A model generated the notes under the pieces. That model was not told the DNA's origin and ran no database searches. It saw only the letters and a list, made by a program, of their open reading frames with translations. The position numbers and the translations under genes were made by a program. A stretch of 64,000 bases of DNA from Chitinophaga pinensis. Lineage in GTDB: Bacteria > Bacteroidota > Bacteroidia > Palsa-965. Shown here in pieces: positions 5,224-51,554 of the stretch. The DNA lies in contig CALRZN010000011.1 in NCBI GenBank assembly GCA_943372645.1, positions 20,200 through 84,199 of the forward strand. Reading direction: 5' to 3'. Each line of letters starts with the position of its first letter. The first letter of the stretch is position 1.

Positions 5224-5285
5224 GTCGTTTTTCGTTCAGGTGAATTGATACTTCAAAGTTACGGATTTTTTGTGGTCGTAACTCA

Positions 5286-5440
5286 GACATGAGACGAATA
5301 GATGTGAGATATGAGACTCCCGCTTTCCGGGAACTGAAGTCTCAAATCTCATATCTGTTTGTCTCAAATCTCAAATCTAAAAGTCTGATGTCTGAAAATC
5401 TCATATCTGGTTGTCTCATATCTGAAGTTTATGTTTCGTA
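5286..5440. promoter_or_regulatory. Divergent promoter region with at least 5 copies of a ~13-nt motif GTCTCAWATCTCA in direct and inverted orientation
   Basis: Seen directly: gtctcaaatctcatatctg (5339), gtctcaaatctcaaatcta (5361), gtctgatgtctgaaaatctcatatctgg (5383), gtctcatatctgaag (5413), inverted gagatatgagac (5306-5317). The 240-bp gap lies between the divergent gmhA-like operon and the POT transporter. Confidence 0.5.
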
Positions 5441-5463
5441 TAAATTAGTTTATCTTCAACCCC

Positions 5464-8717: not shown

Positions 8718-8775
8718 GGGCTTATTAAGTAGCCGCAGTTTCATGGAGCGTATCTTTAAAACAGTACCTGGAATT

Positions 8776-8878
8776 AGTGGCAGGGGCAGTTGGCAGAGGC
8801 AGTCGTGTTACTTGTAAGGAACAGATTCTTCTTCTGAAATACAAACCGACTGCCGCTGCTGCCTGCCACTGCCACTCC
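8776..8878. repeat. Imperfect long inverted repeat built from pentamer arrays: (GGCAG)n arm and (CTGCC)n arm
   Basis: agtggcaggggcagttggcagaggcagtcg (8776-8805) against cgactgccgctgctgcctgccactgccactcc (8847-8878), separated by about 40 nt. The inner 8 bp are perfectly complementary. Lies in the 5' region of mnmE. Confidence 0.45.
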
Positions 8879-8944
8879 GTACAGAACTACTTTACGGAAA
8901 ACAGCTCATGTAAACGGTCTGTTTTAAACTCGTATTTTTGCCCC

Positions 8945-10345
8945 ATGCACGGATTAAAAGCCCTGAACAAGGATACCATTGTTGCCCTCGCCACTGCGCA
9001 GGGAACAGCGGCGATCGGCGTTATACGCCTTTCGGGTCCGCAGGCTATTGCTATTTGTGAAGGTGTTTTCCGTACGCGCAAACTGCAGCCCAAAACATTG
9101 CACGATAAAAATTCGCACACGTTGCATTTTGGCGTCATTGCGTTAAACGACCTGGTGCTGGATGAAGTGGTAGTGAGTCTTTACAAAAATCCGCATTCGT
9201 ACACCGGCGAAGATGTCATTGAAATTTCGTGCCACGGTTCGCCTTACATCCAGCAGCAGATTTTACACCTGCTTGTAAAAGGCGGTGCGCGTATGGCCGA
9301 GCCGGGCGAGTTTACCATGCGGGCGTTTATGAACGGCAAGCTCGACCTCAGCCAGGCCGAAGCAGTGGCCGACCTCATCGCGTCCAACTCGGGCGCCTCG
9401 CACCAGGTGGCCATGCAGCAGATGCGCGGCGGCTTTTCGGAAAAAATCCAGGTGCTGCGCGAACACCTCATCAACTTTGCTTCGCTGATTGAACTCGAAC
9501 TCGATTTTGCCGAAGAAGATGTGGAATTCGCCAACCGCGACGATCTCAAAAAATTACTTTACACCATACAAGGCATTTCGCAGCGCCTCATTGATTCGTT
9601 TGAGGTGGGCAACGTAATCAAAAACGGTATTCCCGTAGCCATCGTAGGCAAACCGAACGCCGGCAAAAGTACGCTGCTGAACACGCTGCTGGACGAAGAC
9701 CGCGCCATTGTAAGCGAAATTCCAGGCACCACGCGCGACACGATTGAAGATGAAATCACCATTGACGGCATCCTGTTCCGTTTTATCGATACGGCCGGCA
9801 TACGCGCCACCACCGACGCGGTGGAAGGCATAGGCGTAGGCAAAACGTTTGAGAAAATGAAACAGAGCGCCATTGTGCTCTATGTGTTTGATGTGCACGA
9901 AATCACCATCCGCGCACTCAACGAAGCACTGGACGAAGTAATGCCGCAGATCGGCAACGCGCAGCTGCTGCTGGTGGGCAACAAAATGGATATGGAAGAC
10001 CTCACCTACATCCAGGATGAGTTCAAAGATTTTGACGTGCTGTTTATTTCCGCCAAAGAAAAACTGTACATCGAAGACCTCAAAGCGCGCCTGGTAGGCC
10101 TGTTCGACAACCGCACCGTTAACGTAACCGAAACCGTAGTAACCAACGCCCGCCACGTGGAAGCCCTGCGCAACACGAACGGCGCCGTTTCGCGTGTGAT
10201 TGATGGCCTGAACCAGAACCTTACGGGTGATTTGCTGGCGGCGGATATACGGCTGGCGCTGGCTTATCTGGGGGAGATTACGGGACAGATATCGAATGAA
10301 GACCTGCTCTCGAACATCTTTTCGAAGTTTTGTATCGGCAAATAA
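8945..10345 (+). CDS. mnmE: tRNA modification GTPase MnmE (TrmE)
   Basis: Listed ORF starts at an upstream GTG. The MnmE-like protein begins at ATG 8945 (MHGLKALNKDTIVALATAQG...). G-domain GKPNAGKSTLLN...DTAG...NKMD. Family-typical C-terminal ...CIGK. Confidence 0.9.
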   Translation: MHGLKALNKDTIVALATAQGTAAIGVIRLSGPQAIAICEGVFRTRKLQPKTLHDKNSHTLHFGVIALNDLVLDEVVVSLYKNPHSYTGEDVIEISCHGSPYIQQQILHLLVKGGARMAEPGEFTMRAFMNGKLDLSQAEAVADLIASNSGASHQVAMQQMRGGFSEKIQVLREHLINFASLIELELDFAEEDVEFANRDDLKKLLYTIQGISQRLIDSFEVGNVIKNGIPVAIVGKPNAGKSTLLNTLLDEDRAIVSEIPGTTRDTIEDEITIDGILFRFIDTAGIRATTDAVEGIGVGKTFEKMKQSAIVLYVFDVHEITIRALNEALDEVMPQIGNAQLLLVGNKMDMEDLTYIQDEFKDFDVLFISAKEKLYIEDLKARLVGLFDNRTVNVTETVVTNARHVEALRNTNGAVSRVIDGLNQNLTGDLLAADIRLALAYLGEITGQISNEDLLSNIFSKFCIGK

Positions 10346-10407
10346 ATTTTCGTCGGTAAACAACTTTCATCCTATTCCATTTTAGTTTTAAAGTAGCAGA
10401 TCATTTA

Positions 10408-10560
10408 CCCGTTAATGTGCCGAAAATCCGGGAGGAAACCGAATACGCGGCCGGTACGAAAAAGCCAAATACATAAAAGACAGAAATCCCTTTCAGTTGG
10501 GGTTACCCGTTGATGCGCCATGCATGGCGCATCAACGCGAACCAAAAACAAAAAACGAAC
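10408..10560. repeat. Composite repeat element copy A, containing the perfect 28-bp palindrome GTTGATGCGCCATGCATGGCGCATCAAC (10509-10536)
   Basis: Conserved ~110-bp left module (cgttaatg.gccg.aaatccgg...aaccgaatacgcggccggtacgaaaaagccaaatac.taaaagacagaaatccctttcagttggggttaccc) followed by the palindrome and an A/C-rich tail gcgaaccaaaaacaaaaa. Shared with copies B-E. Confidence 0.85.
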
Positions 10561-10663
10561 CCGGAACCAAACGTAACACGAACTTTACCGTGAACAGGAA
10601 TCCCAAACGAAAATCGCCCCCATTCCCGCGCGTAAATAAAAACCTCCTGCGTACCTTTACCCC

Positions 10664-11150
10664 AATGACCAATCCACCTCCCTCCAATTTCGAACGCATG
10701 CTCGCCCTCATCGACGAGGTGTTTGCCACGCGCAGCGATCCCGATCAGCTGCAGGTGGATGAAACGGTGATTGAAAAGCTGCAGGCCATTCACCCGGCCA
10801 CACTGGGCGAATACAACGAGGGAAACGGCCCCTGCGTGTGGGTGCTGGTGATTCCGACCACGAAAGAAGTGATGAATGATTTCCTGGCGGGGCGCATCAC
10901 CGAACAGCAGCTGCTCGATAACACAAAACCCGGTCAGCAGTTTGAAGCACTGTACCTCTGCTCCGCCACCGTGCTCCCCGAATACCGCCGCCGTGGGCTT
11001 GCACTGAATCTTTGTATTGATGCTGTAAATGCGATTCAGCAGCAGTATCCGCTGCAGTACCTGTACACCTGGCCGTTTACGCCGGAGGGCCGCGCACTGG
11101 CCGAACACGTGGCAAAAAAAACAGGGCTGACGCTTTTTTCCCTTCCCTGA
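10664..11150 (+). CDS. Putative GNAT-like N-acetyltransferase (small, 162 aa)
   Basis: Real start probably ATG 10664 (MTNPPPSNFERMLAL...). The upstream part of the listed ORF is the repeat element read through. VLPEYRRRGLALNL resembles the GNAT motif A (R-x-x-G-x-A). Confidence 0.4.
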
Positions 11151-11214
11151 GTTTTTATAAATCCAAAAACGGTATCGCGGTTGAAAAAACGACTTATCGG
11201 GAAAACCAAAAAAT

Positions 11215-11580
11215 CCATTTCAATTGGAGTTACGCGTTGAACCGCCGGAAATCCGGAAAGAAAACGAAAGCGCGGCCGGTACGAAAAAGCCGAATACGTA
11301 AAGACAGAAATCCCTTTCAGTTGGGGTTACCCGTTGATGCGCCATGCATGGCGGATCAACGCGAACCAAAAACAAAAACGCCCCCAAAACCAGCAATCGC
11401 ATAAAATAATGCGAACCGCTAACCCCAAAAGTAAAAACAGCAGCTGTTGATCCGCCATGCATAGCGGATCAACGCGAACCAAAAACGCCCCCAAAACCAG
11501 CAATCGCATAAAATAATGCGAACCGCTAACCCAAAAGTAAAAACAGCAGCTGTTTCGATATACCCTATCTTTGGGAAATG
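11215..11580. repeat. Composite repeat element copy B: both hairpin modules plus two near-perfect 28-bp palindromes (11333-11360, 11444-11471) and a ~112-bp tandem duplication (about 2 copies)
   Basis: caattggagttacgcgttgaaccgccggaaatccggaaagaaaacgaaagcgcggccggtacgaaaaagccgaatacgtaaagacagaaatccctttcagttggggttacccGTTGATGCGCCATGCATGGCGGATCAAC. The unit gatcaacgcgaacc...aatcgcataaaataatgcgaaccgctaacc..cagcagctgtt recurs at 11353 and 11467. Confidence 0.85.
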
Positions 11581-11639
11581 ATTTCCGGCGCATGCCAGCC
11601 CTTTAACGTAAAATCAATACTCACCGGGATCATCTGCCT

Positions 11640-12173
11640 ATGAAATCACTCCGGCTGCTCTCCTTTTTTGTACTCCTGGCCTGTTCCTGTTTTGCCCAGG
11701 AGAAGCTAAAATTTACTGACCGGTTGTATGGCGCCGACATGGCATCTACTTACCACTATATACAAGGACGATTTTCCTGGATGCCTTCGAATTTATTATA
11801 TGGTATTCAATACAAAAGAATCCGCTCCGACAACGAGGCCGGCGTTTTCACATTTGAAACCGGGCAAACGTTCTCCCTGAACTATACAAAACTGAACGGG
11901 CAGGATATGTTGAATACGAACCTGGAAGCACACTTCCGGTCGTTTCCGTTAACCGCGGGAATAATCCGGATCGGGGCGGGTATTGATTACACTACCGATT
12001 TTCAGCAGCGCAATTTCTTGTCCGTATATCCTTCTGCGGGTTTGGATATCGGCGGTATTGAAATCATTTACGCGTATCTCATCAATGGAAAAAAAGCTGC
12101 AGAAATTTCAGATCACCGGATAAGCCTTGCTTTCGGACTATGGGTGAAATCGAAAAAAAACGAGAGCCGTTGA
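11640..12173 (+). CDS. Hypothetical secreted protein (signal peptide; possibly a small beta-barrel/OMP-like)
   Basis: 177 aa; N-terminal MKSLRLLSFFVLLACSCFAQE signal peptide. Alternating hydrophobic pattern and C-terminal aromatic residues. No recognisable catalytic motif. Confidence 0.4.
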   Translation: MKSLRLLSFFVLLACSCFAQEKLKFTDRLYGADMASTYHYIQGRFSWMPSNLLYGIQYKRIRSDNEAGVFTFETGQTFSLNYTKLNGQDMLNTNLEAHFRSFPLTAGIIRIGAGIDYTTDFQQRNFLSVYPSAGLDIGGIEIIYAYLINGKKAAEISDHRISLAFGLWVKSKKNESR

Positions 12174-12266
12174 CAACCGTAACAGGAAATGCATCCGGAC
12201 ATACAGGCATGAAAACAACTGTAACGCGCTGATCGTATTAATACCAACAACTAAAAAAACAAAACC

Positions 12267-12968
12267 ATGCTGACGATAGACAATTACTTAGACAGCCACT
12301 ACATCCACCGGAGCAATTGGTTGCGGGCAGCCGTGCTGGGCGCCAACGACGGCATCATTTCCATTTCGAGCCTTGCTGTGGGTGTGGCTGCGGCAAGTTC
12401 GGATCGTGAACCGATTATTCTCGCAACCGTTGCCGGACTTGTGGCGGGGGCGTTATCCATGGCTGCCGGGGAATATGTATCGGTAAGTTCACAAACCGAT
12501 ACCGAAACGGCCGACATTGAACGGGAAAAACGGGAGCTTAAAGAAATGCCGGAAGCGGAGCTGAACATTCTGGCCCAGATTTATGAACGTCGCGGACTGA
12601 AAAAAGAAACGGCCATGCAGGTGGCCATTGAACTGACGGAAAAAGATGCCCTCGGCACACACATCAGGGACGAACTGGGCATTAACGAAATAAGCCAGGC
12701 GAAACCCATACAGGCCGCCGTCGCATCGGGCGCATCATTTACCGCCGGGGGCCTGCTGCCCATGCTGGCTGTGCTTTTTGCGCCGATAAAAGGAATGGAA
12801 TACTGGCTTTATGGATTCACCATTATTTTCCTCGTTGTGCTCGGCGCCATAGCCGCACGGGCCGGCGGATCAAGCATCCGGAAAGCAATTCTGCGCATCA
12901 CCATCTGGGGCACCATTGCAATGGGATTATCCGCAGGCGTAGGATATATTTTTGGCGTTAAGGTTTAG
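12267..12968 (+). CDS. VIT1/CCC1-family iron/manganese transporter
   Basis: 233 aa; WLRAAVLGANDGIISISSLAVGVAAA...MAAGEYVSVSSQ is the VIT family N-terminal signature. Central acidic loop, C-terminal TM helices. Confidence 0.8.
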   Translation: MLTIDNYLDSHYIHRSNWLRAAVLGANDGIISISSLAVGVAAASSDREPIILATVAGLVAGALSMAAGEYVSVSSQTDTETADIEREKRELKEMPEAELNILAQIYERRGLKKETAMQVAIELTEKDALGTHIRDELGINEISQAKPIQAAVASGASFTAGGLLPMLAVLFAPIKGMEYWLYGFTIIFLVVLGAIAARAGGSSIRKAILRITIWGTIAMGLSAGVGYIFGVKV

Positions 12969-12974
12969 AAAAAA

Positions 12975-13360
12975 CGAATCGCGGCCGGAACGAAAAAAAC
13001 GAAAAGAAACGCGGAAAATCCCTTTCAGTTGGAGTTACGCGTTAATGCGCCGGAAAATCCGGAAAGAAAACGAAAGCGCGGGCGGTACAAAAAGTAAAAT
13101 AAGTAACGAAAGAAAAACATTCGGGTTTGTATTCCCCGTTGATGCGCCATGCATGGCGCATCAACGCGAACCAAAAACAAAAACGATCTGCTTTCAAAAC
13201 GAAATTGAACCTGGAACAGGGATGAATCCAAAACCGACGCATCAACGCGAACCAAAAACAAAAACGATCTGCTTTCAAAACGAAATTGAACCCGGAACAG
13301 GGATGAACCAAAAACCGGCGCATCAACGGCGAACCAAAAACAAAAACGATCTTCATTTAA
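12975..13360. repeat. Composite repeat element copy C: duplicated left module, perfect 28-bp palindrome (13138-13165), then ~81-bp tandem repeat x ~2.4 (13158-13355)
   Basis: Each tandem unit starts with the right half-palindrome gcatcaacgcgaaccaaaaacaaaaacgatctgctttcaaaacgaaattgaacc.ggaacagggatgaa.ccaaaaccg. Repeats at 13158, 13239, 13319. Confidence 0.85.
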
Positions 13361-13431
13361 CGATATTTAATAACCCCAATACCAGCCGTTTCGTTTTATA
13401 CCCGAAATTTGGCAAAACCAACCCAGCTACT

Positions 13432-13752
13432 ATGCCCACGAAATACAAAGCCACATTTCTTCTGCTCCTTGCTTCTGCCCTCCCCTGTTTTGCAGGCGGA
13501 TTAAAAGGCGGGCCGTTTATCAGCGATACAATGATTTATGTTTTCTTCGGTTATCTTATTTTTGTACACGGGCTCGGCATTGTAACGTTTGTACTGCGTA
13601 AACTCTGGCTCCGCATCGTTTCCGGTATTTTATACCTTCCTGTTTTTCTTGTGGTTGTCGGTCTCTTTTTTATCAACCCGCTGATTGGCGTTGCCGCCCT
13701 GCTTTTTGCAATGGTCTTTTTGATTTTTCTCATCATCTGGCCGCGTAAATGA
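13432..13752 (+). CDS. Small membrane protein (106 aa), paralog 1 of a tandem pair
   Basis: MPTKYKATFLLLLASALPCFAGG... N-terminal signal/anchor plus 2-3 predicted TM helices. Ends ...IWPRK*. The upstream part of listed ORF 12952..13752 is repeat read-through. Confidence 0.5.
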   Translation: MPTKYKATFLLLLASALPCFAGGLKGGPFISDTMIYVFFGYLIFVHGLGIVTFVLRKLWLRIVSGILYLPVFLVVVGLFFINPLIGVAALLFAMVFLIFLIIWPRK

Positions 13753-13799
13753 GTACCCTATACAGGATAAATGGCTTACGCCTTTAGATAAGTAAATCA

Positions 13800-14114
13800 A
13801 TGCCTGGTAAATACACCGCGACACTGCTGCTCCTCTGTTCTGCAATACCCTGTTTTGCAGATGAAGTGGAACCCATCAAGCTTTTCAGCGATACGTTTAT
13901 TAACAGTTTGCTTGCATACATCTATTTTGTGCATGTGCTGGCTATCGTAGCATTTTTTTTACGTTACGAATGGTTGCGTGTAGTTGCAGGTGTACTCTAC
14001 GCACCTGTATTTTTGATTCCAACAGGCCTCTGCTTTGTCAATTTTGCTTTTGCGCTTCTCTTTCTTTTTACCGGGGCATTTTTCACCTTTACCATCATTA
14101 TCAGACGTAAATGA
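13800..14114 (+). CDS. Small membrane protein (104 aa), paralog 2 of a tandem pair
   Basis: MPGKYTATLLLLCSAIPCFADE... same architecture and same C-terminal ...IIRRK* as paralog 1. Stop overlaps the start of the next gene (TAAATGA). Confidence 0.5.
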   Translation: MPGKYTATLLLLCSAIPCFADEVEPIKLFSDTFINSLLAYIYFVHVLAIVAFFLRYEWLRVVAGVLYAPVFLIPTGLCFVNFAFALLFLFTGAFFTFTIIIRRK

Positions 14115-16015
14115 GCACCCGTATCCGCATAGTCCTGCTTGCCCTGCTGCTCTGTAGTTCCATTGCCGGCGTGTGGATCTATTTTTACAAATCGCGCACC
14201 GCACCGGTGAAAACAGATGACCTGGCGTTTGTGCATACACTAAACACCTCCGCCGATTTTCAAAACTTTGCCGGGGCCCCGCTCGACAATGCGTACCCGG
14301 ACATCAGTAGCGTAAAAGCGGTGTACGACCTCGACCGGAAAGAAATCTACTACATAAACTCGAACCTGTACCGGCTGCACTTCGATTTCTGCAGCAAGGT
14401 GCTGGGGTATAAAATGGGACTGCGTTTGTTCAACATTGCCAACTACGGCAGCGAACGCGATTATTATTTAGCCAACATCAATTACCTGCGGAAAAGCAAC
14501 AGCTATGTGCTGGAGTTTGGCATGTACGATGAAATAGACAGCGTACAGATTGCGGAGATGTTCAACAAGGTGCGTGAAAGTCCGCTGTTTATCAACAACC
14601 TGCGCCTGCTGCTGAACAATACGAACAGCATTCAGTATTTCAGCAACGGAAAAACCATTCCCACCTGCAACCCGAATGAACTGAACGACGGCCTTCCCTT
14701 CCAGGCCATCCAGCCCGGCACCTGCACCGGCAGGCTGGTGGTGTGCGACGATCTGAAAACACAGTATCTTACCATTACGCCCGGTGATATTCTTGTACTG
14801 AAAGGTTCACCCACTGATATTCCTTTGTGCAAAGCCATTATCAGCGACTGTTTTCAGACCCCGCTGAGCCACATCCAGGTGCTGAGTCACAATAAAAAAA
14901 TGCCTTCGGCGTATTTGAAGGATGTTTTTACAAACAACAGCATTACACAATACAACGGGCAGTATGTAAAACTGGTGGTTACAGCCGACACGTTGCGCAT
15001 TACACCCGCTTCGCCGGATGCGGTGGAAGAACAGCAGCAGCAAAAGGTCGTTTTAAAATTAAACACAGCAATTCATTCCATTGTGCCGATTGAAAAATGC
15101 AGCAACCTTACCAACGCCGATATCGGAACAAAAGCAAAAGGATTCTCCGACCTGAAACAGATCGCTGATAAAAACTTCAGCCTGTTTCGTGTGCCGGAAG
15201 GTGCGTTTGTGATCCCGTTTTATTTTTACCGGCAGCACCTGCAAAACGCAAACGTTGCCCCGCAGCTGGTCGCACTGGAACAATGTCCTGCACACGAAAC
15301 ACAAAAGATGGATGAACTGCTGAGGCAGATCCGCAAAGCGATTGAAGAAACACCGGTTGATGCCGGGCTGCTGCTGCAGATCAACACGCAGATCCGCAAA
15401 AACAACTGCGGTAACAGTTACCGCTTCCGCAGCAGCAGCAATGCCGAAGACCTCGCCGAATTCAGCGGGGCCGGGCTGTACACCAGCAAAACCGGCGAAC
15501 TGAACGGGAAGAAAAAAACAATTGAACGTGCCATCAAAAAAGTGTGGATCAGCATGTACAACTACCGCGCTTACCAGGAACGCCGCTTCGCACATATTGA
15601 TGAAAACACCGCTGGTATGAGCATACTCGCGCACCGGAATTTCCCGGATGAAGACATCAACGGCGTAATTATTACCAAAAACAACTACCGCGCGAACTAC
15701 CCCGGCCTGGTAATCAATGCGCAGCTGGGCGATGTATCAACCGTAAGTCCGCCCGACAGTGTGCGCTGCGAACAGTTGATACTGACGGAGAACAAACTGA
15801 TGAATCCGTTCAGCAAAAAAGTAAGCGCGAAATACATCTGCTTCAGCAGCCTGCACACCGAAGGGCCGCTGCTGCGGTATGAACAGTTGCTGCAGCTTCA
15901 GCAAAGCACCAAAGCCGTGCAGGAATTTTATGCCGCAAAGAAACTGGACTGGGATATTGAGTTTAAGTTTGAAGGCGGTATTCTGTATTTTAAACAGGTA
16001 AGGCCGTACAGGTAA
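14111..16015 (+). CDS. Membrane-anchored PEP-utilizing-enzyme homolog with permuted domain order (swivel phospho-His-like domain before the PPDK_N-like nucleotide-binding domain)
   Basis: 634 aa; N-terminal TM helix. GDILVLKGSPTDIPLCKAIISDCFQTPLSHIQVLSHNKKMP resembles the PEP-utilizers mobile domain (GeILV..t.P.w.....aaiit..GGrTSHAAIvARE.G.P). About 190 aa further downstream, FRSSSNAEDLAEFSGAGLYTSK...KKVWISMYNYRAYQERR resembles the PPDK_N/PpsA ATP-binding motif (VRSSATAEDLPGASFAGQQET...CYASLFTDRAIKYR, compare ppsA at 31431). Confidence 0.55.
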   Translation: MSTRIRIVLLALLLCSSIAGVWIYFYKSRTAPVKTDDLAFVHTLNTSADFQNFAGAPLDNAYPDISSVKAVYDLDRKEIYYINSNLYRLHFDFCSKVLGYKMGLRLFNIANYGSERDYYLANINYLRKSNSYVLEFGMYDEIDSVQIAEMFNKVRESPLFINNLRLLLNNTNSIQYFSNGKTIPTCNPNELNDGLPFQAIQPGTCTGRLVVCDDLKTQYLTITPGDILVLKGSPTDIPLCKAIISDCFQTPLSHIQVLSHNKKMPSAYLKDVFTNNSITQYNGQYVKLVVTADTLRITPASPDAVEEQQQQKVVLKLNTAIHSIVPIEKCSNLTNADIGTKAKGFSDLKQIADKNFSLFRVPEGAFVIPFYFYRQHLQNANVAPQLVALEQCPAHETQKMDELLRQIRKAIEETPVDAGLLLQINTQIRKNNCGNSYRFRSSSNAEDLAEFSGAGLYTSKTGELNGKKKTIERAIKKVWISMYNYRAYQERRFAHIDENTAGMSILAHRNFPDEDINGVIITKNNYRANYPGLVINAQLGDVSTVSPPDSVRCEQLILTENKLMNPFSKKVSAKYICFSSLHTEGPLLRYEQLLQLQQSTKAVQEFYAAKKLDWDIEFKFEGGILYFKQVRPYR

Positions 16016-16020
16016 GCGAA

Positions 16021-16260
16021 CAAAATCGCCGCCGTTACGAAAAAGCCAAATACGAAAAGAAAGAAATCCGTCCAGGTTTGTATTCCCCGTTGATGCGCCA
16101 TGCATGGCGCATCAACGCGAACCAACAACGCCAGGAAAACGCGAACCAAAAACGAAAAGGAATTTCGAACTAAAAAAAAACCATCAACGCGAACCAAAAG
16201 CGAAAAGGAATTTCGAACTAAAAAAAGCGGATCAACGCGAACCCCAAATCCGGAAGAACC
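16021..16260. repeat. Composite repeat element copy D: left module, perfect 28-bp palindrome (16089-16116), then 48-bp tandem repeat x ~2.5 (16117-16245)
   Basis: Units gcgaaccaaaa.cgaaaaggaatttcgaactaaaaaaa..c..atcaac each end in the right half-palindrome (atcaacgcgaacc at 16111, 16183, 16230). Confidence 0.85.
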
Positions 16261-16390
16261 GGATACCGACGGATCGGCTTAGTCCCCAGGGGAAAGCGGC
16301 GCAACCACCCATCCACAAACTTCTGCTGTTCGCCCCGGACCCAATACCATATTCGGGCTTCCATTATCTTTATGCAATTAAACACACGTT

Positions 16391-19300
16391 TTGAAAACAT
16401 TCTTGCGGCTGATTTTCCTGCCTTTCCTGTTGTGGTGTTCCGTTTATGCGAATGCCCAGGGAACGAATTATATCGTGCAGAAAAAACTGTACACGTATTC
16501 CGACGGCATACCGGGAAACAAGGTGTCGTGCGTGGCGCAGGACGAACTGGGCTATATCTGGATCGGAACCACTTACGGAATCTGCCGTTTCGACGGGCGC
16601 AGGTTTGAAGTCTTTACCCCAAAAACACACGGACTGCAGAACAAACCGGTCGGCATGGTGTATTCCGACGGGCAGCACGGACTCGTTATTGCCTATCAGA
16701 GCAGTTTTTACGACAACCAGGTAACATATGAAAACCTGGATGTGCTTGACATCCGCACGCTGCAGGTGAAACCGCTTGATGTGTATTACCGCAACATGCC
16801 TTTCGCACGCGACCAGGTTCACAACCTCTATGTAGATCAGCGTAACCGGGTAAAAGGATTTTTTATTACGCCTTATGATTATTATAATATCCAAACCCGC
16901 GTTAGCTGCCCCCGCTGGATTCCCGATGCTAACGGCGGGCTTGTGAAAAAAGAACGCACCGTAAGGAAATGCGTGATTTTTGAAGACAACGGCAAAACGG
17001 AAACTGCCAAAAGTGTGGACTTTCAAGCACAAACCGATTTGCGTTCCGTTGACCTGGTGCTGATGGCCGACAGCGAGCTTATACTTAACGAACAGGATCA
17101 ACAGCAATTTGTTTTTCGCGACGACAGCGGCAATGTGTTTCGGCGGACGGATACGCGTGGAAAATGGGGATATTATTTCATCAGTTATGCAGGTGATGTG
17201 CACTACCTCGGCGAAACCCAGGCTGCAATAGGGAATTATACAGCACAACTGCAGAACCAGTACACGAGTCAATGCTACGGACTGGAGGAAGGACCGCAGC
17301 ATTATCTTGCTGTTTTTTCGCGGGAAACGGGCGCTGTTCCGGTAACCGATTCGACTGACCGGGAGGAACTGAAACGTGCGCATCCCATCAGCATGATCCG
17401 CGACCGCACCGGCAATTACTGGATCGGTACCACGGAAGGGTTGCTGAAAGTAACGCTTGCTGAAAAATATTTTCATACGTTATATACTGCAGCAACCGAA
17501 CCGGTGAACGGAAACCAGTCGGTGCGCGGCATTCTTGTGCTTCCTGATTTTTCAGCGGTGGCGCTGGGCAGTCACCAGAACATCCGATACAAGGACAGGG
17601 TATATCGCACCCCAACAAACTTCAATCATTCGTCGCTCTATTTCAACAACACGTTATGGCTGGGATCCTTTGATTTAAAAACTTTTGATTTTGTTACCGG
17701 CCAAACCATACAGAAACAGCAATCTGCCAGCGACGAAATATGGAGCATGTTCCCGTGCGGCGGCAACCGCATTTTATTAGGCTGCACCAAAAACCTCGAT
17801 GTTTACGACTGCGACGCGGATACGATTACGCATATTGATGCGGGTGTGTTTCCGGTTCCGCAACTGGTGTATCGCATTTTTTCTGCAGGCGAAAACCGGA
17901 TCATCTGCGTGGCCTCCAACGGCATTTATGAACTGGACAGCACGTGCCGCATACGCGATTATTTCGGTAAAAAGGCCGGGCCGGCAGAACACCGGTTGCC
18001 TTTCGAAAACATCAACGACCTGCATATCGACCGGCAGGGTATTTATTGGTTCGCCACTGCGCAGGATGGGCTGTTCCGCTGGGACCGCACGCATAACGCG
18101 TTTACCCGTTTCGGTATTGATGACGGATTTTTAACTGCCAAACTCTGCCGCATCGAAGCGACTGGTACAGACATTCTCTGGATCAGTACGGATTTCGGAC
18201 TGGCCCGTTTCAACAAACAAACCGGCCGTGCAAAAACATACACCACTGCCGAAGGTCTTCATCACAATGAATTTAACCGCAGTTCCAGTTTCAAAGATGC
18301 TTCCGGAAACCTGTGGTTCGGTACCATTGACGGATGTGTATATTTTACCCCGGAAGACCTTGCCGGTACTGCCGCACTTGCCACCAGTCCGTTTCTCATC
18401 CGCAGCATCGCCAGGTTCAATCCGGCCACCAGCATGCAGGAAGATGTTTCGGAAGAACTGCGTGAACGCGGATACCTCGAACTGCGCGGCAACAGCCGGA
18501 GCCTCAGCCTCCGTGTGCTGCTGCTCGATCTGCAGGAACGCGAACACCTCTATCTGTACGAAATCAAAGGGCAGGATCCGGAGAAAAAATATGCGTACGA
18601 TGGACAGATCAACCTCAGCAACCTGCCTTATGGTACATTCACACTCGTAATAACCGCGCAGCAGGCTGACGGTACGTGGAATACACAGCCCTTAAAAATA
18701 GAATTGCATGTGCTGCCGCCATTTTACCGGTCAGCATGGTTTATTGCATTGGTCATCATTGTGCTTATTCTCCTCGTATGGCTGTATTTCCGCTACCGGA
18801 TACGCAAAATAAGCAAGGAGAAAAAACGACTGGAAAACACCGTAACAGAACGTACAGCCGAACTGCGTGCATCGCTGGCGGAGCAAACCGCATTACTCCA
18901 GGAGGTGCATCACCGCGTTAAAAACAACCTCCAGTTTATCGTGGCCATGCTGCAGATGCAGATCAATGCAGTGAAAGATGAAACGAACAAGGCAGTACTC
19001 AAAGACACGTCGCTGCGGATTAACGCGATGAGCCTTGTGCATGAAATGCTCTATAACAAAGACAAACTGGAATACATTGCCATCGAAACCTATCTGCACG
19101 AACTGGTCTCCAAACTGCGTGAACTGGTTTATGCAGAACATACACCGGTTACAATTAAACTGGATATTGACCCGGTAAAATTTAATGTAAATGAGAGCGT
19201 TGCATTGGGTATGCTGACTTCGGAGATTATCAGCAATTCCATTAAATATGCGTTTGCCGGCAATCCTGATCCGCTTATTGAAATCAGCCTGAAATTCGCT

Positions 19301-19498
19301 CCCGGCAGTAAAACAATAACCTACCGCATTGGGGATAACGGCTGCGGTATAAACGAAAACAACAAAGGCAAAGGTCTTGGCCTGCGGCTGATTGATATTT
19401 TTTCACGGCAGCTGGAGGCTACATACAAAATAAACAACGGGAACGGTTTAACCTTTTCCTTTGAAATTCCATACACGCCCGATGAAAAACCTGTTTAA
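16391..19498 (+). CDS. Sensor histidine kinase with periplasmic two-component-regulator propeller/Y_Y_Y domain, TM helix, HisKA_2-type phosphoacceptor and HATPase_c
   Basis: 1035 aa; signal peptide, repeated ...YIWIGT.. propeller motifs, TM FIALVIIVLILLVWLYF. HHRVKNNLQFIVAMLQMQ (HisKA_2 H-box). C-terminal GDNGCGI...GKGLGLRLI (ATP lid). Listed start codon is TTG, so the start is uncertain. Confidence 0.85.
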   Translation: MKTFLRLIFLPFLLWCSVYANAQGTNYIVQKKLYTYSDGIPGNKVSCVAQDELGYIWIGTTYGICRFDGRRFEVFTPKTHGLQNKPVGMVYSDGQHGLVIAYQSSFYDNQVTYENLDVLDIRTLQVKPLDVYYRNMPFARDQVHNLYVDQRNRVKGFFITPYDYYNIQTRVSCPRWIPDANGGLVKKERTVRKCVIFEDNGKTETAKSVDFQAQTDLRSVDLVLMADSELILNEQDQQQFVFRDDSGNVFRRTDTRGKWGYYFISYAGDVHYLGETQAAIGNYTAQLQNQYTSQCYGLEEGPQHYLAVFSRETGAVPVTDSTDREELKRAHPISMIRDRTGNYWIGTTEGLLKVTLAEKYFHTLYTAATEPVNGNQSVRGILVLPDFSAVALGSHQNIRYKDRVYRTPTNFNHSSLYFNNTLWLGSFDLKTFDFVTGQTIQKQQSASDEIWSMFPCGGNRILLGCTKNLDVYDCDADTITHIDAGVFPVPQLVYRIFSAGENRIICVASNGIYELDSTCRIRDYFGKKAGPAEHRLPFENINDLHIDRQGIYWFATAQDGLFRWDRTHNAFTRFGIDDGFLTAKLCRIEATGTDILWISTDFGLARFNKQTGRAKTYTTAEGLHHNEFNRSSSFKDASGNLWFGTIDGCVYFTPEDLAGTAALATSPFLIRSIARFNPATSMQEDVSEELRERGYLELRGNSRSLSLRVLLLDLQEREHLYLYEIKGQDPEKKYAYDGQINLSNLPYGTFTLVITAQQADGTWNTQPLKIELHVLPPFYRSAWFIALVIIVLILLVWLYFRYRIRKISKEKKRLENTVTERTAELRASLAEQTALLQEVHHRVKNNLQFIVAMLQMQINAVKDETNKAVLKDTSLRINAMSLVHEMLYNKDKLEYIAIETYLHELVSKLRELVYAEHTPVTIKLDIDPVKFNVNESVALGMLTSEIISNSIKYAFAGNPDPLIEISLKFAPGSKTITYRIGDNGCGINENNKGKGLGLRLIDIFSRQLEATYKINNGNGLTFSFEIPYTPDEKPV

Positions 19499-20156
19499 AA
19501 TATTAATTGTTGATGATGAAGTGCTGATTGCTGAGTTTCTGAAAGATGTACTCACCGGCCTGGGATACGCGCAGCTGATGCTGGCCCACAACCGGAGACA
19601 GGCCATAATTCAGCTCGAAGAATTCAAACCGGACCTCGTATTGCTCGATATCCGGATGAAAGAAGAACTGGAAGGCATCCAGATTGCTGAACGGATTAAC
19701 CAGGAGTTCAAAATTCCGTTTATTTACATCACCGCACAGTCGGACAAAGAAATCATCGGCAAAGCGCTCAGTACAAAACCGGCCGGTTATATTACCAAAC
19801 CATTCAAACAGGCCGACGTGTTTGCAGCCATCCGGCTGGTGGAAGAAAACGCCGAAAGCAGCAGCGAAAAATTTCTTGTTTTTAAAGACGGTTACGATAC
19901 GATCAAACTCTCAGTTGACGATGTTTTATATGCCAAAAGCAACGACAACTATATTGATGTTTATACCACCACGAAAAAATACACCCTGCGTTATACGCTC
20001 GACTGGTTGTGCGAAAATACACCTGACGGCATGTTCCACCGCACGCACCGCTCGGCGGTGGTAAACATTACCAAAATTACACGGGCCACATCGAAATCGG
20101 TTTTTATCGGCGAGGTGGAAATACCGGTCTCCCGCGGGAACCAGGTAAAGCTGTAA
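19482..20156 (+). CDS. LytTR-family response regulator (REC + LytTR DNA-binding domain)
   Basis: MKNLFKILIVDDE...LLDIRM (receiver domain with phospho-Asp). C-terminal LytTR domain ...YAKSNDNYIDVYTTTKKYTLRYTLDWL...FHRTHRSAVVN. Start overlaps the kinase stop (operon). Confidence 0.85.
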   Translation: MKNLFKILIVDDEVLIAEFLKDVLTGLGYAQLMLAHNRRQAIIQLEEFKPDLVLLDIRMKEELEGIQIAERINQEFKIPFIYITAQSDKEIIGKALSTKPAGYITKPFKQADVFAAIRLVEENAESSSEKFLVFKDGYDTIKLSVDDVLYAKSNDNYIDVYTTTKKYTLRYTLDWLCENTPDGMFHRTHRSAVVNITKITRATSKSVFIGEVEIPVSRGNQVKL

Positions 20157-22848: not shown

Positions 22849-22870
22849 ACCATTCAGGAACTATGAGCAA

Positions 22871-22902
22871 AACGCATCCGTATTTCCGGGTGCGTTTTTT
22901 TT
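22871..22902 (+). terminator. Rho-independent terminator after the T9SS SprB-repeat gene
   Basis: aacgcatccg-tatttc-cgggtgcgtt (10-bp stem with one G·U wobble) followed by tttttttt. Lies 23 nt after the stop at 22848. Confidence 0.7.
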
Positions 22903-22907
22903 GATAC

Positions 22908-23035
22908 CCGTTGATCCGCCGGAAAACCGGAACGTAAACGAAAGCGCGGCCGGTACGAAAAGCAAAATACGGAAAGAAAGAAATCCGTTTTAGTCGGAGT
23001 TACCTGTTGATGCGCCATGCATGGCGCATCAACAA
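22908..23035. repeat. Composite repeat element copy E with the first hairpin (gttgatccgccggaaaaccgg) and the perfect 28-bp palindrome (23006-23033)
   Basis: cccgttgatccgccggaaaaccggaacgtaaacgaaagcgcggccggtacgaaaagcaaaatacggaaagaaagaaatccgttttagtcggagttacctGTTGATGCGCCATGCATGGCGCATCAAC. Sits immediately downstream of the terminator. Confidence 0.85.
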
Positions 23036-23213
23036 GTACCCAAAACAAAGACGAAACTGAAACGGAGAACCTGAACGAACTACGATCTTCGTTATTCCCG
23101 GCAGAACGACGCCTACCAAAAAACATATAATCACCGCGTTCCCCGTTCCTTCCCAAAACCTGTTAATCTGTTACCGTTGCAGCCAATAACTTTCTAATTT
23201 TGGATGCAATTCC

Positions 23214-34761: not shown

Positions 34762-34797
34762 CAAAAAAAGTTTAGTGAAACCAGTTTCACTAAACTT
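34762..34797 (-). terminator. Rho-independent terminator for mntH (minus strand)
   Basis: Perfect 13-bp inverted repeat aagtttagtgaaa-ccag-tttcactaaactt, with an A7 run on the plus strand (T-run on minus) immediately adjacent. Lies 67 nt downstream of the mntH stop. Confidence 0.7.
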
Positions 34798-34864
34798 TCT
34801 TGTATCTCAATATTTACGAAGCTTTCGGCCGTTTTTACCAACTATTTTTCAGTAATATGCGGTA

Positions 34865-36759: not shown

Positions 36760-37458
36760 TTATTTTTTACGGAGCAGGATGTTTTTCGCTACGTCGTGAC
36801 TGATGTAAATGGATTTTTTTTTGTTCACCAGCAGGTGCATGGACGAATCGTATTCCAGCACCTCCCGCACTTTCAGCTCCGCGCCCAGCCCGATGCCCGA
36901 TTTATCGAGGTAGCGCAGAAACGCCGGGGCATGATCGGCCACACCGGTCATAATGCCCGACTGGTTTTTCTTCAGGCTGCTGAGCAGCTGCGTATCCGTT
37001 GCCGGAAACTTGCCCTGCCGGTCGGGAATCGGGTCGCCGTGCGGATCTACACGCGGGTTGTCGAGAAAATCATCGAGGCGTTCAATCAGCATGTCGGACT
37101 GGATGTGTTCCAGCTGCTCGGCCATGTCATGTACTTCGTCCCAGCGGAAATCGAGCTTTTTTACCAGAAACACTTCCCAAAGCCGGTGTTTGCGGATGAT
37201 GTGTACGGCTACCTTGCGCCCGCTGTCGGTAAGCGTTACGCCCTGGTATTTGCGGTAATGAATCAGTTTTTTCTCCGCCAGTTTTTTCAGCATATCCGTA
37301 ACCGAAGCCGCTTTCGTCTGCATTTTCGCAGCAATGGCGTTGGTGGTTACTTCCTCCGCGTGTACAGGGGCGGCACTGCCGGAAGCCTCGTTCTGCGCCT
37401 GTTCCAGCAATTTGTAGATCGCTTTCAGGTAGTTTTCTTCGGTATAAGAATGTGTCAT
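36760..37458 (-). CDS. mntR: DtxR/MntR-family metal-dependent transcriptional repressor with C-terminal FeoA/SH3-like domain
   Basis: NYLKAIYKL...HTH, metal-binding region, ...HLLVNKKKSIYISHDVA (FeoA-like). Directly upstream of, and co-oriented with, mntH. Confidence 0.8.
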   Translation of the reverse strand: MTHSYTEENYLKAIYKLLEQAQNEASGSAAPVHAEEVTTNAIAAKMQTKAASVTDMLKKLAEKKLIHYRKYQGVTLTDSGRKVAVHIIRKHRLWEVFLVKKLDFRWDEVHDMAEQLEHIQSDMLIERLDDFLDNPRVDPHGDPIPDRQGKFPATDTQLLSSLKKNQSGIMTGVADHAPAFLRYLDKSGIGLGAELKVREVLEYDSSMHLLVNKKKSIYISHDVAKNILLRKK

Positions 37459-51551: not shown

Positions 51552-51554
51552 GGC

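What the first reader, a model, noticed from the sequence alone, without database searches (positions are those of the whole stretch)
11353..16245. Locus-specific tandem duplications seeded by the half-palindrome inside three of the repeat elements
At copy B a ~112-bp unit is duplicated (11353, 11467). At copy C an 81-bp unit occurs ~2.4 times (13158, 13239, 13319). At copy D a 48-bp unit occurs ~2.5 times (16117-16245). Unit sequences differ between loci, but every unit begins or ends with the right half-site (g/c)(a/g)TCAACGCGAACC. This pattern suggests replication slippage or recombination nucleated at the palindrome, or a protein that repeatedly nicks at the half-site. Within a locus the units are near-identical, with indels such as the aaaaac deletion in B unit 2, so the duplications look recent.
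Basis: seen in the sequence. Interest (0 to 1): 0.5.

Follow-up and report, generated by a model that had tools for sequence, protein, structure and literature searches.

The report
Palindrome-anchored tandem arrays in intergenic repeats
Five gaps between genes in an uncultured Bacteroidia genome carry the same mosaic repeat built around a perfectly conserved 28-30 bp palindrome, and the DNA just to the right of it has been duplicated in tandem again and again; this resembles known bacterial intergenic repeats (REP/BIME, BOX, MIRU) and is most likely hairpin-provoked copying errors, not a new system.

Summary
Tandem Repeats Finder reports arrays at 11333-11554 (about 107-113 nt x2.0), 13157-13352 (81 nt x2.4) and 16138-16243 (48 nt x2.2). 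Each abuts a copy of GTTGATGCGCCATGCATGGCGCATCAAC. These are the only arrays in 64 kb with a period of 40 nt or more.

Two corrections. Array B duplicates the whole palindrome, not only its right half. One D unit carries only ACGCGAACC.

The palindrome belongs to a mosaic intergenic element of about 155-300 nt. It has 97-nt left units that each start with the forward arm, then the palindrome, then right units that each start with the inverted arm, then a Bacteroidetes-type promoter. Five copies lie within 10.4-23.1 kb and none elsewhere in the window.

Four related metagenome genomes (83-88% aa identity in one neighbouring protein) carry the same element. They show independent arrays starting at the dyad centre, lineage-specific copy numbers, palindrome deletions and a 162-nt block copied 631 nt away. 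Three compensatory double substitutions keep the dyad perfect.

Duplication endpoints scatter from -3 to +49, one array has no half-site, and no transposase or recombinase is nearby. Best reading: a REP/BIME-like hairpin element whose flank expands by template switching and unequal recombination. A dedicated nicking enzyme is not excluded. Interest is moderate to low.

The parts
10411..10560 (+). Element A. Degenerate forward arm (GTTAATGTGCC, 10411-10421), a 98-nt left unit, the 30-nt perfect palindrome at 10508-10537, and the start of the A/C-rich spacer. No tandem array.
   Evidence: (nhmmer E 8e-47)
11169..11332 (+). Element B, left side. A partial left unit (11169-11235) and a full 97-nt left unit that starts with the forward arm GTTGAACCGCC (11236-11246).
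   Evidence: (family D6)
11333..11554 (+). Array B. Unit 1 is 11333-11445 (palindrome 11333-11360, 1 mismatch). Unit 2 is 11446-11552 (palindrome 11446-11473 with the compensatory G7>C change). It is followed by GTT, which is shared with the start of the unit.
11566..11573 (+). TATCTTTG, a Bacteroidetes -7-type box downstream of array B and 66 nt before the start codon at 11640.
   Evidence: the same motif sits just upstream of many starts in the window (8933, 28608, 52176 and others)
12972..13137 (+). Element C, left side. A partial left unit (12972-13040) and a full 97-nt left unit that starts with the forward arm GTTAATGCGCC (13041-13051).
13137..13166 (.). Palindrome C, a 30-nt perfect dyad: CGTTGATGCGCCATGCATGGCGCATCAACG.
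   Evidence: DNA hairpin -16.9 kcal/mol, z -5.6
13157..13352 (+). Array C. Three units each led by the right arm (13155, 13236, 13317). Units 1 and 2 are 96% identical. Unit 3 is partial, and weaker similarity continues into the conserved anchor TCATTTAACGATATTTAATA.
   Evidence: (D11); anchor compared with L084/L083/L088
16016..16117 (+). Element D. A truncated left unit that starts right after the stop codon at 16015, then the 30-nt perfect palindrome at 16088-16117.
16113..16243 (+). Array D. A degenerate 24-28-nt first unit, then 48-nt units at 16138 and 16186 (98% identical), then a terminal right arm plus tail (16226-16243). ATCAACGCGAACC occurs at 16111, 16183 and 16231.
   Evidence: (D5)
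22869..22898 (+). A canonical hairpin-plus-T-run terminator of the upstream gene, immediately before element E.
   Evidence: conserved in L084 17831-17860
22903..23057 (+). Element E. Forward arm GTTGATCCGCC (22910-22920), a 96-nt left unit, and the 30-nt perfect palindrome at 23005-23034 whose outer pair is T-A instead of C-G. No array. A -7 box TAATTTTG lies at 23195-23202.

Best explanation
The three arrays are expansions of the right flank of a lineage-restricted, mosaic intergenic repeat.

Anatomy (shown). Each element has:
- one to about 2.6 left units of about 97 nt, each starting with the forward arm GTTGATGCGCC;
- a 28-30 bp perfect palindrome, read as 11-nt arm + ATGCAT + 11-nt arm;
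- one to three right units of 48-113 nt, each starting with the inverted arm GGCGCATCAAC;
- an A/C-rich spacer, then the -7-type promoter box of the next gene.

Mechanism (inferred). The palindrome can fold into a stable hairpin or cruciform when the DNA is single-stranded during replication. Stalling there lets the growing strand detach and re-pair nearby (template switching or slipped mispairing). This creates a duplication with one end in or at the edge of the palindrome and the other at an arbitrary point in the low-complexity spacer. Once two right arms plus tails exist as 20-55-nt direct repeats, unequal recombination or further slippage adds or removes whole units. The same structure-dependent process explains three other findings: the symmetric (compensatory) changes that keep the dyad perfect, the deletions that removed the palindrome in one relative, and the small AAAAAC-type indels.

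Why the palindrome is kept unchanged across species is not settled. It is probably also bound by some protein, as REP elements are. No dedicated enzyme is needed to explain the arrays.
For: Anatomy.

The hairpin is strong: -16.9 kcal/mol as DNA, z -5.6, 0 of 200 shuffles fold as well.

The dyad is maintained by pairing. Across 14 copies from 4 genomes, 97.8% of cells pair and 3 pairs changed on both sides: the outer C-G became T-A in both E copies, G7-C22 became C7-G22 in B', and A5-T24 became C5-G24 in L089. Only 1 of 500 shuffles reaches this. Intra-strand template switching at quasipalindromes is known to make them more perfect (PMC7202029).

Endpoints are imprecise: -3, 0-2, 14, 15, 17-19, 38 and 49 from the palindrome start. 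The B junction has a 3-nt GTT microhomology.

The spacer is generally slippage-prone: the AAAAAC indel, a 42-nt repeat without a half-site in L084, and a GAAAACY micro-duplication in L089.

Copy number is lineage-specific at orthologous loci.

Palindrome-removing deletions in L084 at loci B and D keep both element flanks.

No transposase, integrase or recombinase domain was found in the 64-kb window or in the gene lists of L083/L084.

Gene order and orientation between the identical palindromes are conserved in all genomes.

Against: The 28 nt are identical in 9 of 14 copies across genomes whose neighbouring PPDK_N-like protein is only 83-88% identical. The left flanks are 60-91% identical and the right flanks are barely alignable. 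Slippage alone does not explain that level of constraint.

In old arrays the solitary right arm looks better kept than the rest of the unit: 12/12 versus about 76% in L083 15401-15536. This hints at selection on half-sites.

The spacing between right arms is similar at several loci (76-81 nt).

A 162-nt block (palindrome plus array) was copied 631 nt downstream into a gene in L083. That is more than simple slippage.

No experiment or read-level data were available. Replication direction through the locus is unknown: no DnaA-box cluster was found and the skew is ambiguous.
Confidence: 0.5

Rival explanations
1. A dedicated structure-specific enzyme acts at the palindrome. It could be a HUH/Y1 nickase of the RAYT or IS200/IS605 or rolling-circle type, or a tyrosine or serine recombinase using the 11-6-11 site. 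The arrays, the B' copy and the 162-nt block in L083 would be products of repeated cleavage and one-ended copying that starts at the palindrome and ends at variable points to its right.
For: All array starts lie within the palindrome or at its edge in at least five independent events.

Two block copies, B' in the window and C' in L083, both begin 0-3 nt left of the palindrome.

The sequence is strictly conserved yet shows compensatory changes, as expected for hairpin-recognising enzymes.

The 11+6+11 layout equals that of Xer/dif-type core sites (sequence; family knowledge).

In L083 extra genes (HxlR, a hydrolase, DUF2200) sit between three element copies where the window has one copy.
Against: Endpoints vary by more than 20 nt.

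There is no target-site duplication at the C' insertion.

No candidate enzyme gene was found in 64 kb plus two loci of about 21 kb.

The palindrome has no GTAG or CGTC tag (versus PMC3733652).

Copies are seen only in one syntenic 13-kb neighbourhood: 5 of 7 adjacent gaps and 0 of 21 others.

Five identical, fully symmetric sites 0.8-7 kb apart have produced no inversion or excision of the genes between them in any of five genomes.

Other gene-content differences next to elements are not flanked by two copies.
Confidence: 0.2
2. The arms are binding sites for a transcription factor or nucleoid protein, possibly the LytTR response regulator encoded inside the cluster at 19482-20156. The arrays would be kept because extra half-sites or altered spacing tune expression of the downstream genes, in the manner of iterons or operator arrays.
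For: Every copy lies in a gap upstream of a co-directional gene, with a -7-type box after the array.

Element E lies between a canonical terminator and the next promoter, so it is probably untranscribed DNA.

Solitary arms are conserved in old arrays, and forward arms recur 97 nt upstream.

The cluster surrounds a histidine kinase/LytTR pair in all genomes.

CCGTTGAT loosely resembles the LytTR 9-mer consensus. I recalled this from memory; it was not tested.
Against: The distance from the last arm to the -7 box is not fixed, about 75-165 nt.

The central 6 bp are as conserved as the arms, and double compensatory changes are not expected for a protein-only readout.

L084 lost the palindrome at loci B and D but kept the downstream genes and promoter modules.

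In L083 copy D faces a convergent gene, not a promoter.

LytTR sites are normally direct repeats about 21 bp apart, which is not seen here.
Confidence: 0.2
3. The element works as RNA. A transcribed hairpin with A-rich flanks would stabilise or process the neighbouring mRNAs, and the arrays would be neutral length variation of an untranslated region.
For: All copies are co-oriented with the flanking genes, and both flanks are A-rich and T-poor on the sense strand.

The hairpin is stable and covaries.

REPs and BOX elements are thought to act partly as RNA (PMC3733652, PMC3049150).
Against: There is no Rfam match, even at E<=5.

Nothing beyond the hairpin folds better than shuffles convincingly: z -2.5 on the + strand and -1.7 on the - strand.

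There is no T-run after the hairpin on either strand.

Element E follows a strong terminator and precedes the promoter box.

Imperfect copies show mismatches that would be wobble pairs on different strands, so no strand is consistently favoured.
Confidence: 0.07
4. The arrays are assembly artefacts of a metagenome-assembled genome.
For: Short-read assemblies break at these repeats. The Logan contigs end inside palindromes and arrays.
Against: The unitig ends fall exactly where unit-specific SNPs or indels first enter a 31-mer, so both unit variants are in the reads.

Comparable arrays occur in an independent JGI assembly of a related genome.
Confidence: 0.03

Closest known systems
REP / BIME / REPIN clusters of Proteobacteria (e.g. 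E. coli BIME-2, Pseudomonas fluorescens SBW25 REPIN clusters)
   Same: A short G+C-rich extragenic palindrome that is kept conserved while its flanks drift. Units occur in both orientations. Clusters arise because the palindromic unit is reiterated in tandem together with variable lengths of flanking DNA (PMC3733652; PMC3116915).
   Different: There is no GTAG or CGTC tag. The stem is longer and perfect (13-15 bp). Only a local cluster was seen (5 copies in 13 kb, none in the other 51 kb). No RAYT gene was found. Arrays grow on one side only. The phylum is Bacteroidota. The family is absent from GTDB species representatives.
BOX elements of Streptococcus pneumoniae (boxA-boxB(n)-boxC)
   Same: A modular intergenic repeat in which an internal module is present in a variable number of tandem copies that differ between strains. 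Larger arrays vary more. It sits next to genes and can affect their expression (PMC3049150).
   Different: BOX elements are dispersed (more than 100 copies) and have terminal inverted repeats and target-site duplications. Here the repeated module is led by one arm of a central palindrome, and neither TIRs nor TSDs were found.
MIRU-type intergenic minisatellites (VNTR) of Mycobacterium tuberculosis (from my own knowledge; not checked in the paper library)
   Same: Tandem units of about 40-110 bp in gaps between co-directional genes, oriented with those genes, with copy number differing between lineages.
   Different: MIRUs are not anchored on a palindrome. Their units often carry overlapping stop/start codons. 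They are scattered round the chromosome.
Quasipalindrome template-switch and palindrome-stimulated slippage hotspots (E. coli thyA, lacZ QP reporters)
   Same: A hairpin-forming inverted repeat stalls replication. The nascent strand switches template, which makes the arms more perfectly complementary and promotes nearby rearrangements (PMC7202029). This matches the compensatory changes, deletions and duplications seen here.
   Different: Those are mutational hotspots at single sites in laboratory reporters. Here the palindrome is a multi-copy element conserved across species, and the products are long tandem units.
Xer/dif and plasmid pdif modules (tyrosine-recombinase core sites)
   Same: 28 bp organised as an 11-bp arm, a 6-bp centre and an 11-bp arm. 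Several sites bound gene blocks.
   Different: The arms do not resemble the dif arms I recalled from memory. The site is fully symmetric. There are five copies close together near mnmE/parAB rather than one at the terminus. No rearrangement between sites is seen in five genomes. No extra recombinase gene is nearby.

Membership tests
REP / BIME / REPIN-RAYT | Short (20-60 bp) extragenic palindromic unit able to form a stem-loop | tested here: met
   28-30 bp dyad, always intergenic. DNA hairpin -16.9 kcal/mol, z -5.6.
REP / BIME / REPIN-RAYT | Conserved unpaired GTAG (or CGTC) tetranucleotide at one end of the stem | tested here: not met
   The flanks are ..TTACCC / ..ATTCCCY on the left and GCGAACC / GYGTACC / AAGTACC on the right. 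There is no GTAG or CGTC on either strand (definition from PMC3733652).
REP / BIME / REPIN-RAYT | High copy number dispersed over the chromosome | tested here: inconclusive
   Five copies in 10.4-23.1 kb and none in the remaining 51 kb (nhmmer). A search for spurious ORFs across the element found nothing.
REP / BIME / REPIN-RAYT | Cognate RAYT (Y1 transposase) gene, usually flanked by the repeats | tested here: inconclusive
   No Y1_Tnp or any transposase domain in the window or in the L083/L084 gene lists. Whole genomes were not searched.
REP / BIME / REPIN-RAYT | Clusters formed by tandem reiteration of units with flanking DNA | tested here: met
   Arrays B, C and D in the window, and L083 9153-9296, 9786-9930 and 15401-15536.
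MITE (non-autonomous DNA transposon) | Terminal inverted repeats at the element ends and a target-site duplication | tested here: not met
   The inverted arms abut at the centre, not at the ends. The one clear new insertion (L083 9766-9927) has no flanking direct repeat and replaces about 240 nt of a gene.
BOX-type modular repeat | Fixed end modules with a variable number of an internal module in tandem | tested here: met
   Left units x1-2.6, the palindrome, right units x1-3, and a conserved promoter-proximal module (GTTTCG..TATACCC..-7 box). This is an analogy of architecture only; there is no sequence similarity.
Integron attC / gene cassette array | Imperfect palindrome ordered RYYYAAC...GTTRRRY with extrahelical bases; nearby intI with attI; promoterless cassettes | tested here: not met
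   The order is GTTGAT...ATCAAC, the reverse of attC. Pairing is perfect with no bulges. There is no integrase in 64 kb. Downstream genes have their own -7 boxes. The attC definition is from my own knowledge.
Xer/dif or pdif recombination site | 11-6/8-11 core architecture | tested here: met
   GTTGATGCGCC ATGCAT GGCGCATCAAC.
Xer/dif or pdif recombination site | Arms resembling XerC/XerD arms; one chromosomal copy at the terminus, or alternating orientation around modules; evidence of recombination between sites | tested here: not met
   The arms are identical to each other, so the site is symmetric. There are five copies near mnmE and parAB. Gene order and orientation between copies are unchanged in five genomes. 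Comparison with the E. coli dif arms was by eye from memory.
LytTR response-regulator operator | Two imperfect 9-bp direct repeats separated by about 12-13 bp, at a fixed place upstream of the promoter | tested here: not met
   The arms are inverted at the centre, and direct copies lie 48-113 nt apart. The distance to the -7 box varies from 75 to 165 nt. The definition is from my own knowledge.
Known structured RNA families (Rfam 15) | Match to a covariance model at or near the gathering score | tested here: not met
   0 matches at gathering score in the window. Only chance-level hits (E 0.7-2) in 10300-16500.
Group II intron 5' end | GUGYG start followed by domain I, with an intron-encoded protein or ribozyme domains | tested here: not met
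   The 18-nt core TGCGCCATGCATGGCGCA is shared with intron-like elements in unrelated metagenomes. Here it is preceded by GTTGA, not G. No downstream similarity was found (nhmmer) and there is no Rfam intron hit.

The most novel reading that the evidence does not exclude
The palindrome is the recognition and cleavage site of an as yet unidentified structure-specific enzyme in this Bacteroidia clade, either a hairpin nickase or a symmetric-site recombinase. Copying would start at the dyad and run rightwards for a variable distance. The product would be re-joined either in tandem (arrays B, C, D) or nearby (the 162-nt block in L083). The same sites would serve as entry points for the extra genes seen between element copies in L083. 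That would be a locally acting, one-ended copy mechanism different from REPIN-RAYT, integron or Xer systems.
Probability: 0.15. Interest if true: 0.7.

Novelty: new member of a known kind. Interest (0 to 1): 0.35.

Why it matters
If the main reading is right, this is a clean natural example of a perfect palindrome acting as a fixed anchor for repeated tandem duplication. It comes with five related genomes that show birth, growth, decay and loss of the arrays.

Practical consequences:
- The loci are VNTR-like markers for this uncultured lineage.
- They are a warning for assembly of these regions, because all short-read contigs break there.
- They are candidate sites where promoter-to-upstream distance changes between strains.

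The unexplained part is why 28-30 bp stay identical across species while the flanks are scrambled. That is the only feature that could lead to something new, namely a hairpin-binding protein or enzyme in Bacteroidota, a phylum where REP-like systems are barely described.

Tried and rejected
Public-collection scans:
- The palindrome, with three degenerate positions, gave 0 hits in GTDB species genomes, JGI metagenome contigs and IMG/VR. The JGI result is not proof of absence, because the JGI contig later fetched as L083 carries the exact palindrome.
- The 80 genomes with the closest MnmE (at most 72% aa) have no half-site or core.
- A second metagenome scan with the 18-nt core gave 62 loci. None belongs to the family. 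Many are 5' ends of group II intron-like elements.

Finding more copies through spurious ORFs failed: a protein search with the translated element shared no words with anything.

Relatives at 66-67% aa (L085-L087) lack the element, so they offer no deeper covariation.

Families considered and rejected:
- Rfam: nothing.
- Sigma-70 promoter scan: uninformative for this phylum.
- oriC or iterons: no DnaA-box cluster.
- Also rejected: integron attC, dif/pdif, MITE, LytTR operator, a DGR template/variable-repeat pair (no reverse transcriptase, non-coding), CRISPR, and a large diverged inverted repeat (both flanks are A-rich on the same strand; nhmmer minus-strand hits cover only the palindrome).

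Unknown neighbouring proteins gave no DNA-enzyme hits in Pfam or NCBIfam.

Full report
1. THE OBSERVATION

Tandem Repeats Finder on the whole window reports three arrays:
- 11333-11554: consensus period 107, two copies of 113 and 107 nt, 92% matches.
- 13157-13352: 81 nt, 2.4 copies, 95% matches.
- 16138-16243: 48 nt, 2.2 copies, 91% matches, with weaker 13- and 24-nt periodicities from 16113.

No other array with a period of 40 nt or more exists in the 64 kb.

The motif TCAACGCGAACC occurs eight times, all on the + strand and all in these regions, against 0.7 expected. The 28-nt sequence GTTGATGCGCCATGCATGGCGCATCAAC occurs at 10509, 11333 (1 mismatch), 11446 (3 mismatches), 13138, 16089 and 23006, against 0 expected.

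Three corrections:
- Array B starts at 11333, the left edge of the palindrome, and therefore duplicates the whole palindrome.
- The first 48-nt D unit carries only ACGCGAACC.
- The third C copy has an inserted G.

All three arrays begin within the 54-nt zones next to the five palindromes, which make up 270 of 7076 intergenic nt. I estimate this at about 6e-5 by chance.

Two Logan unitigs of run ERR9580603 are exact substrings of the window (11503-13153 and 13263-16104). Each starts exactly at the first 31-mer that tells unit 2 from unit 1. The unit variants therefore exist in the reads. Absolute copy number is unverified.

2. WHAT THE ARRAYS BELONG TO

The palindrome is the centre of a larger repeat. 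Alignment and an nhmmer profile of the five copies give five full matches (E 1e-41 to 1e-49) at 10405, 11229, 13034, 15985 and 22904. All are on the + strand and all lie in gaps between + strand genes. There are none elsewhere in the window: 5 of 7 consecutive gaps are occupied and 0 of the 21 others.

Searching the 18-nt extended arm with up to 3 mismatches gives 15 sites against 0.13 expected. The layout is:
- Forward arms lie 97 nt upstream of each palindrome (11236, 13041, 22910; degenerate at 10411). Each starts a left unit of about 97 nt, and a further partial left unit lies before B and C.
- The palindrome is a forward arm, then ATGCAT, then an inverted arm.
- Further inverted arms lead the right-hand units.
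- After the arrays comes a module shared by B and C (GTTTCG..TATACCC) with a TAnnTTTG box. Exact matches lie at 11566 and 23195. The same box sits just before many other start codons in the window.

Element E is preceded by the only strong hairpin-plus-T-run terminator in the region (22869-22898).

Neighbouring genes are ordinary and unrelated to each other: MnmE, a GNAT-like protein, VIT1, two small membrane proteins, a PPDK_N-like protein, a Reg_prop/HisKA_2 kinase with a LytTR regulator, SprB-like and MORN proteins. ParA and ParB lie 21 kb further on.

No transposase, integrase or recombinase domain was found anywhere in the window. Rfam gives nothing.

3. RELATIVES

The palindrome is absent from GTDB species representatives, from the JGI contig collection that DNA-search scans, and from IMG/VR. 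The closest MnmE in GTDB is 72% identical, and those loci lack the element.

A protein search with the 634-aa PPDK_N-like protein found closer genomes. Their contigs were fetched:
- L083: 83% aa, JGI 3300045051, a 580-kb contig.
- L084: 87%.
- L088: 88%.
- L089: 87%.

L083 and L084 are syntenic with the window across this region. L088 and L089 are contigs of about 2.9 kb that cover only the small-gene/PPDK_N block. All four carry the element with the same palindrome. Genomes at 66-67% aa lack it, so the family is confined to a narrow clade.

Across 14 copies the 28 nt are identical in nine, and the rest differ at one to three positions. The 70 nt to the left are 60-91% identical, and the right side is barely alignable.

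Some copies resemble non-orthologous copies more than their positional orthologue. For example, L084-C is 0.84-0.87 identical to window A/B but 0.70 to window C. This indicates exchange or turnover among copies.

4. DYNAMICS SEEN BY COMPARISON

(a) Locus C (after VIT1):
- The window has 2.4 units of 81 nt, 96% alike.
- L084 and L089 have one short unit.
- L088 has one unit of another sequence type.
- L083 has two units of that type (78 nt, 83% alike).
- The window and L083 therefore expanded independently, each from its own unit. Both arrays start at the dyad centre or arm boundary (palindrome positions 15 and 17-19).

(b) L083 copy Y has two 79-nt units, 81% alike, starting at position 14, which is the exact centre. 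Copy D has a second right arm 76 nt downstream. Right-arm repetition is therefore old as well as recent.

(c) In L083 a 162-nt block, running from 3 nt left of the palindrome to the end of its array, is present a second time 631 nt downstream at about 93% identity. It replaces the 5' part of the second small membrane-protein gene and has no target-site duplication. Like B' in the window, this copy begins at the left edge of the palindrome.

(d) L084 has lost the palindrome at locus B (GTTAAT fused to ACGAACCGC) and at locus D (gccaaa|CGCGAACCCC). It keeps both flanks of the element. Its C palindrome has two unpaired substitutions.

(e) L084 copy E has a 42-nt tandem repeat (30/32 identical) that starts 10 nt after the palindrome and contains no half-site.

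(f) Gene content differs between genomes next to elements: MoxR-VWA; Reg_prop/AraC/DUF1398; HxlR/hydrolase/DUF2200; a 141-aa gene. Only in L083 are the extra genes bracketed by element copies.

5. THE DYAD IS KEPT BY PAIRING

Counting the 13-pair helix on the 14 copies gives 97.8% paired cells and three pairs with changes on both sides:
- the outer pair C-G became T-A in both E copies;
- G7-C22 became C7-G22 in B', with copy B as the G-G intermediate;
- A5-T24 became C5-G24 in L089.

Only 1 of 500 shuffles reaches this, and slid controls give none. As DNA the hairpin has -16.9 kcal/mol, z -5.6.

Intra-strand template switching at quasipalindromes, which makes the arms more perfect, is an established replication error (PMC7202029).

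6. MECHANISM

I commit to hairpin-associated replication template switching or slippage, followed by unequal recombination between the resulting direct repeats, with no dedicated enzyme.

Shown:
- one array end lies in the palindrome;
- the endpoints scatter (-3, 0-2, 14, 15, 17-19, 38, 49);
- there is a GTT microhomology at the B junction;
- small slippage indels occur in the spacer;
- one array lacks a half-site;
- deletions have removed the palindrome;
- the dyad shows compensatory perfection;
- no enzyme genes lie nearby;
- no rearrangement has occurred between five identical symmetric sites.

Inferred:
- the hairpin forms in vivo and stalls replication;
- the direction of the fork;
- unequal exchange changes copy number.

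Not explained by this alone:
- the near-absolute conservation of 28-30 bp;
- the good preservation of solitary right arms;
- the similar 76-81 nt spacing;
- the 162-nt block copy.

Because of these, I keep about 0.2 each for a dedicated structure-specific enzyme and for a protein-binding or regulatory role of the arms. Smaller weight goes to an RNA role and to an assembly artefact. The mechanism by which the arrays arise and the reason the palindrome is conserved are separate questions. A REP-like protein-binding role is compatible with the slippage origin of the arrays.

7. COMPARISON WITH KNOWN SYSTEMS

The closest known kind is the REP/BIME/REPIN world. [quoted passage not shown]

Membership fails on the GTAG/CGTC tag. 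It is untestable here for dispersion and for RAYT.

Architecturally it also resembles pneumococcal BOX elements, which have a variable number of boxB modules (PMC3049150), and mycobacterial MIRU minisatellites (my own knowledge).

Integron attC, dif/pdif, MITE, LytTR operator, group II intron and Rfam families were each tested on defining features and not met (see the membership table).

8. VERDICT

The family itself is undescribed as far as these libraries show, but the phenomenon is of a known kind. Interest is moderate to low (0.35).

The most novel reading not excluded is a palindrome-specific nicking or recombination activity that drives one-ended local copying. I give it a probability of about 0.15.

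Noticed in passing
window 8755-8900; L083 about 1600-1720 and 2720-2840: A segment of about 110 nt between the patatin gene and mnmE contains TGGCAG(A/G)GGCAGT twice (8778-8803) and an inverted partner (ACTGCC...CTGCCACTGCCAC) about 60 nt downstream. In L083 the whole segment is present twice as direct repeats, flanking an extra 267-aa minus-strand gene. This looks like an insertion bounded by a duplicated site.
   Followed up: partly
window 34767-34798: A 32-nt near-perfect AT-rich palindrome, AAAGTTTAGTGAAACCAGTTTCACTAAACTTT, lies in the gap downstream of the Nramp-Usp gene (34865-36754, minus strand) and upstream of a 136-aa gene. A DtxR/MntR-type repressor is encoded at 36760-37458. It could be an operator or a terminator.
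   Followed up: no
window 5224-5463 (repeats 5337-5431): The gap between divergently transcribed genes is filled with short TCTCAAA / AAATCTCATATCTG repeats. Gene orientation switches here. No DnaA-box cluster was found anywhere in the window.
   Followed up: partly
window 50092-50622: Long CCG/GGC trinucleotide runs lie inside the gene for a T9SS-tailed PKD/Ig-like protein (48594-50912, minus strand). They encode glycine-rich repeats and are another slippage-prone tract.
   Followed up: no
loci L090-L151, e.g. L093 3575, L101 5658, L116 60, L142 8732: The 18-nt core TGCGCCATGCATGGCGCA is also the first stem of a family of group II intron-like elements (G|TGCGCC..., then TAGCTAGGCGGTGAAAGTCCGC...). 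They are inserted just after terminator hairpins in unrelated JGI/ENA metagenomes. They have no other similarity to the element studied here.
   Followed up: partly
window 10568-10575, 11426-11433, 11532-11539 (minus strand): Exact TAnnTTTG boxes lie on the minus strand inside the spacer of element A and inside each B unit, pointing back towards the palindrome. These may be chance in T-rich sequence, or antisense promoters that are copied with the unit.
   Followed up: no
window 13432-13752 and 13800-14114; L083 9401-10000; L084 8943-9263: The two small membrane-protein genes before the PPDK_N-like gene are diverged paralogues. L084 and L089 have one copy. L083 has one copy plus a remnant destroyed by the element block. 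L086 (67% relative) has two (family D14, 35, 36, 52, 61).
   Followed up: partly
window 51099-52166: A RES-domain toxin and an Xre/MbcA/ParS-type antitoxin pair lies on the minus strand.
   Followed up: no
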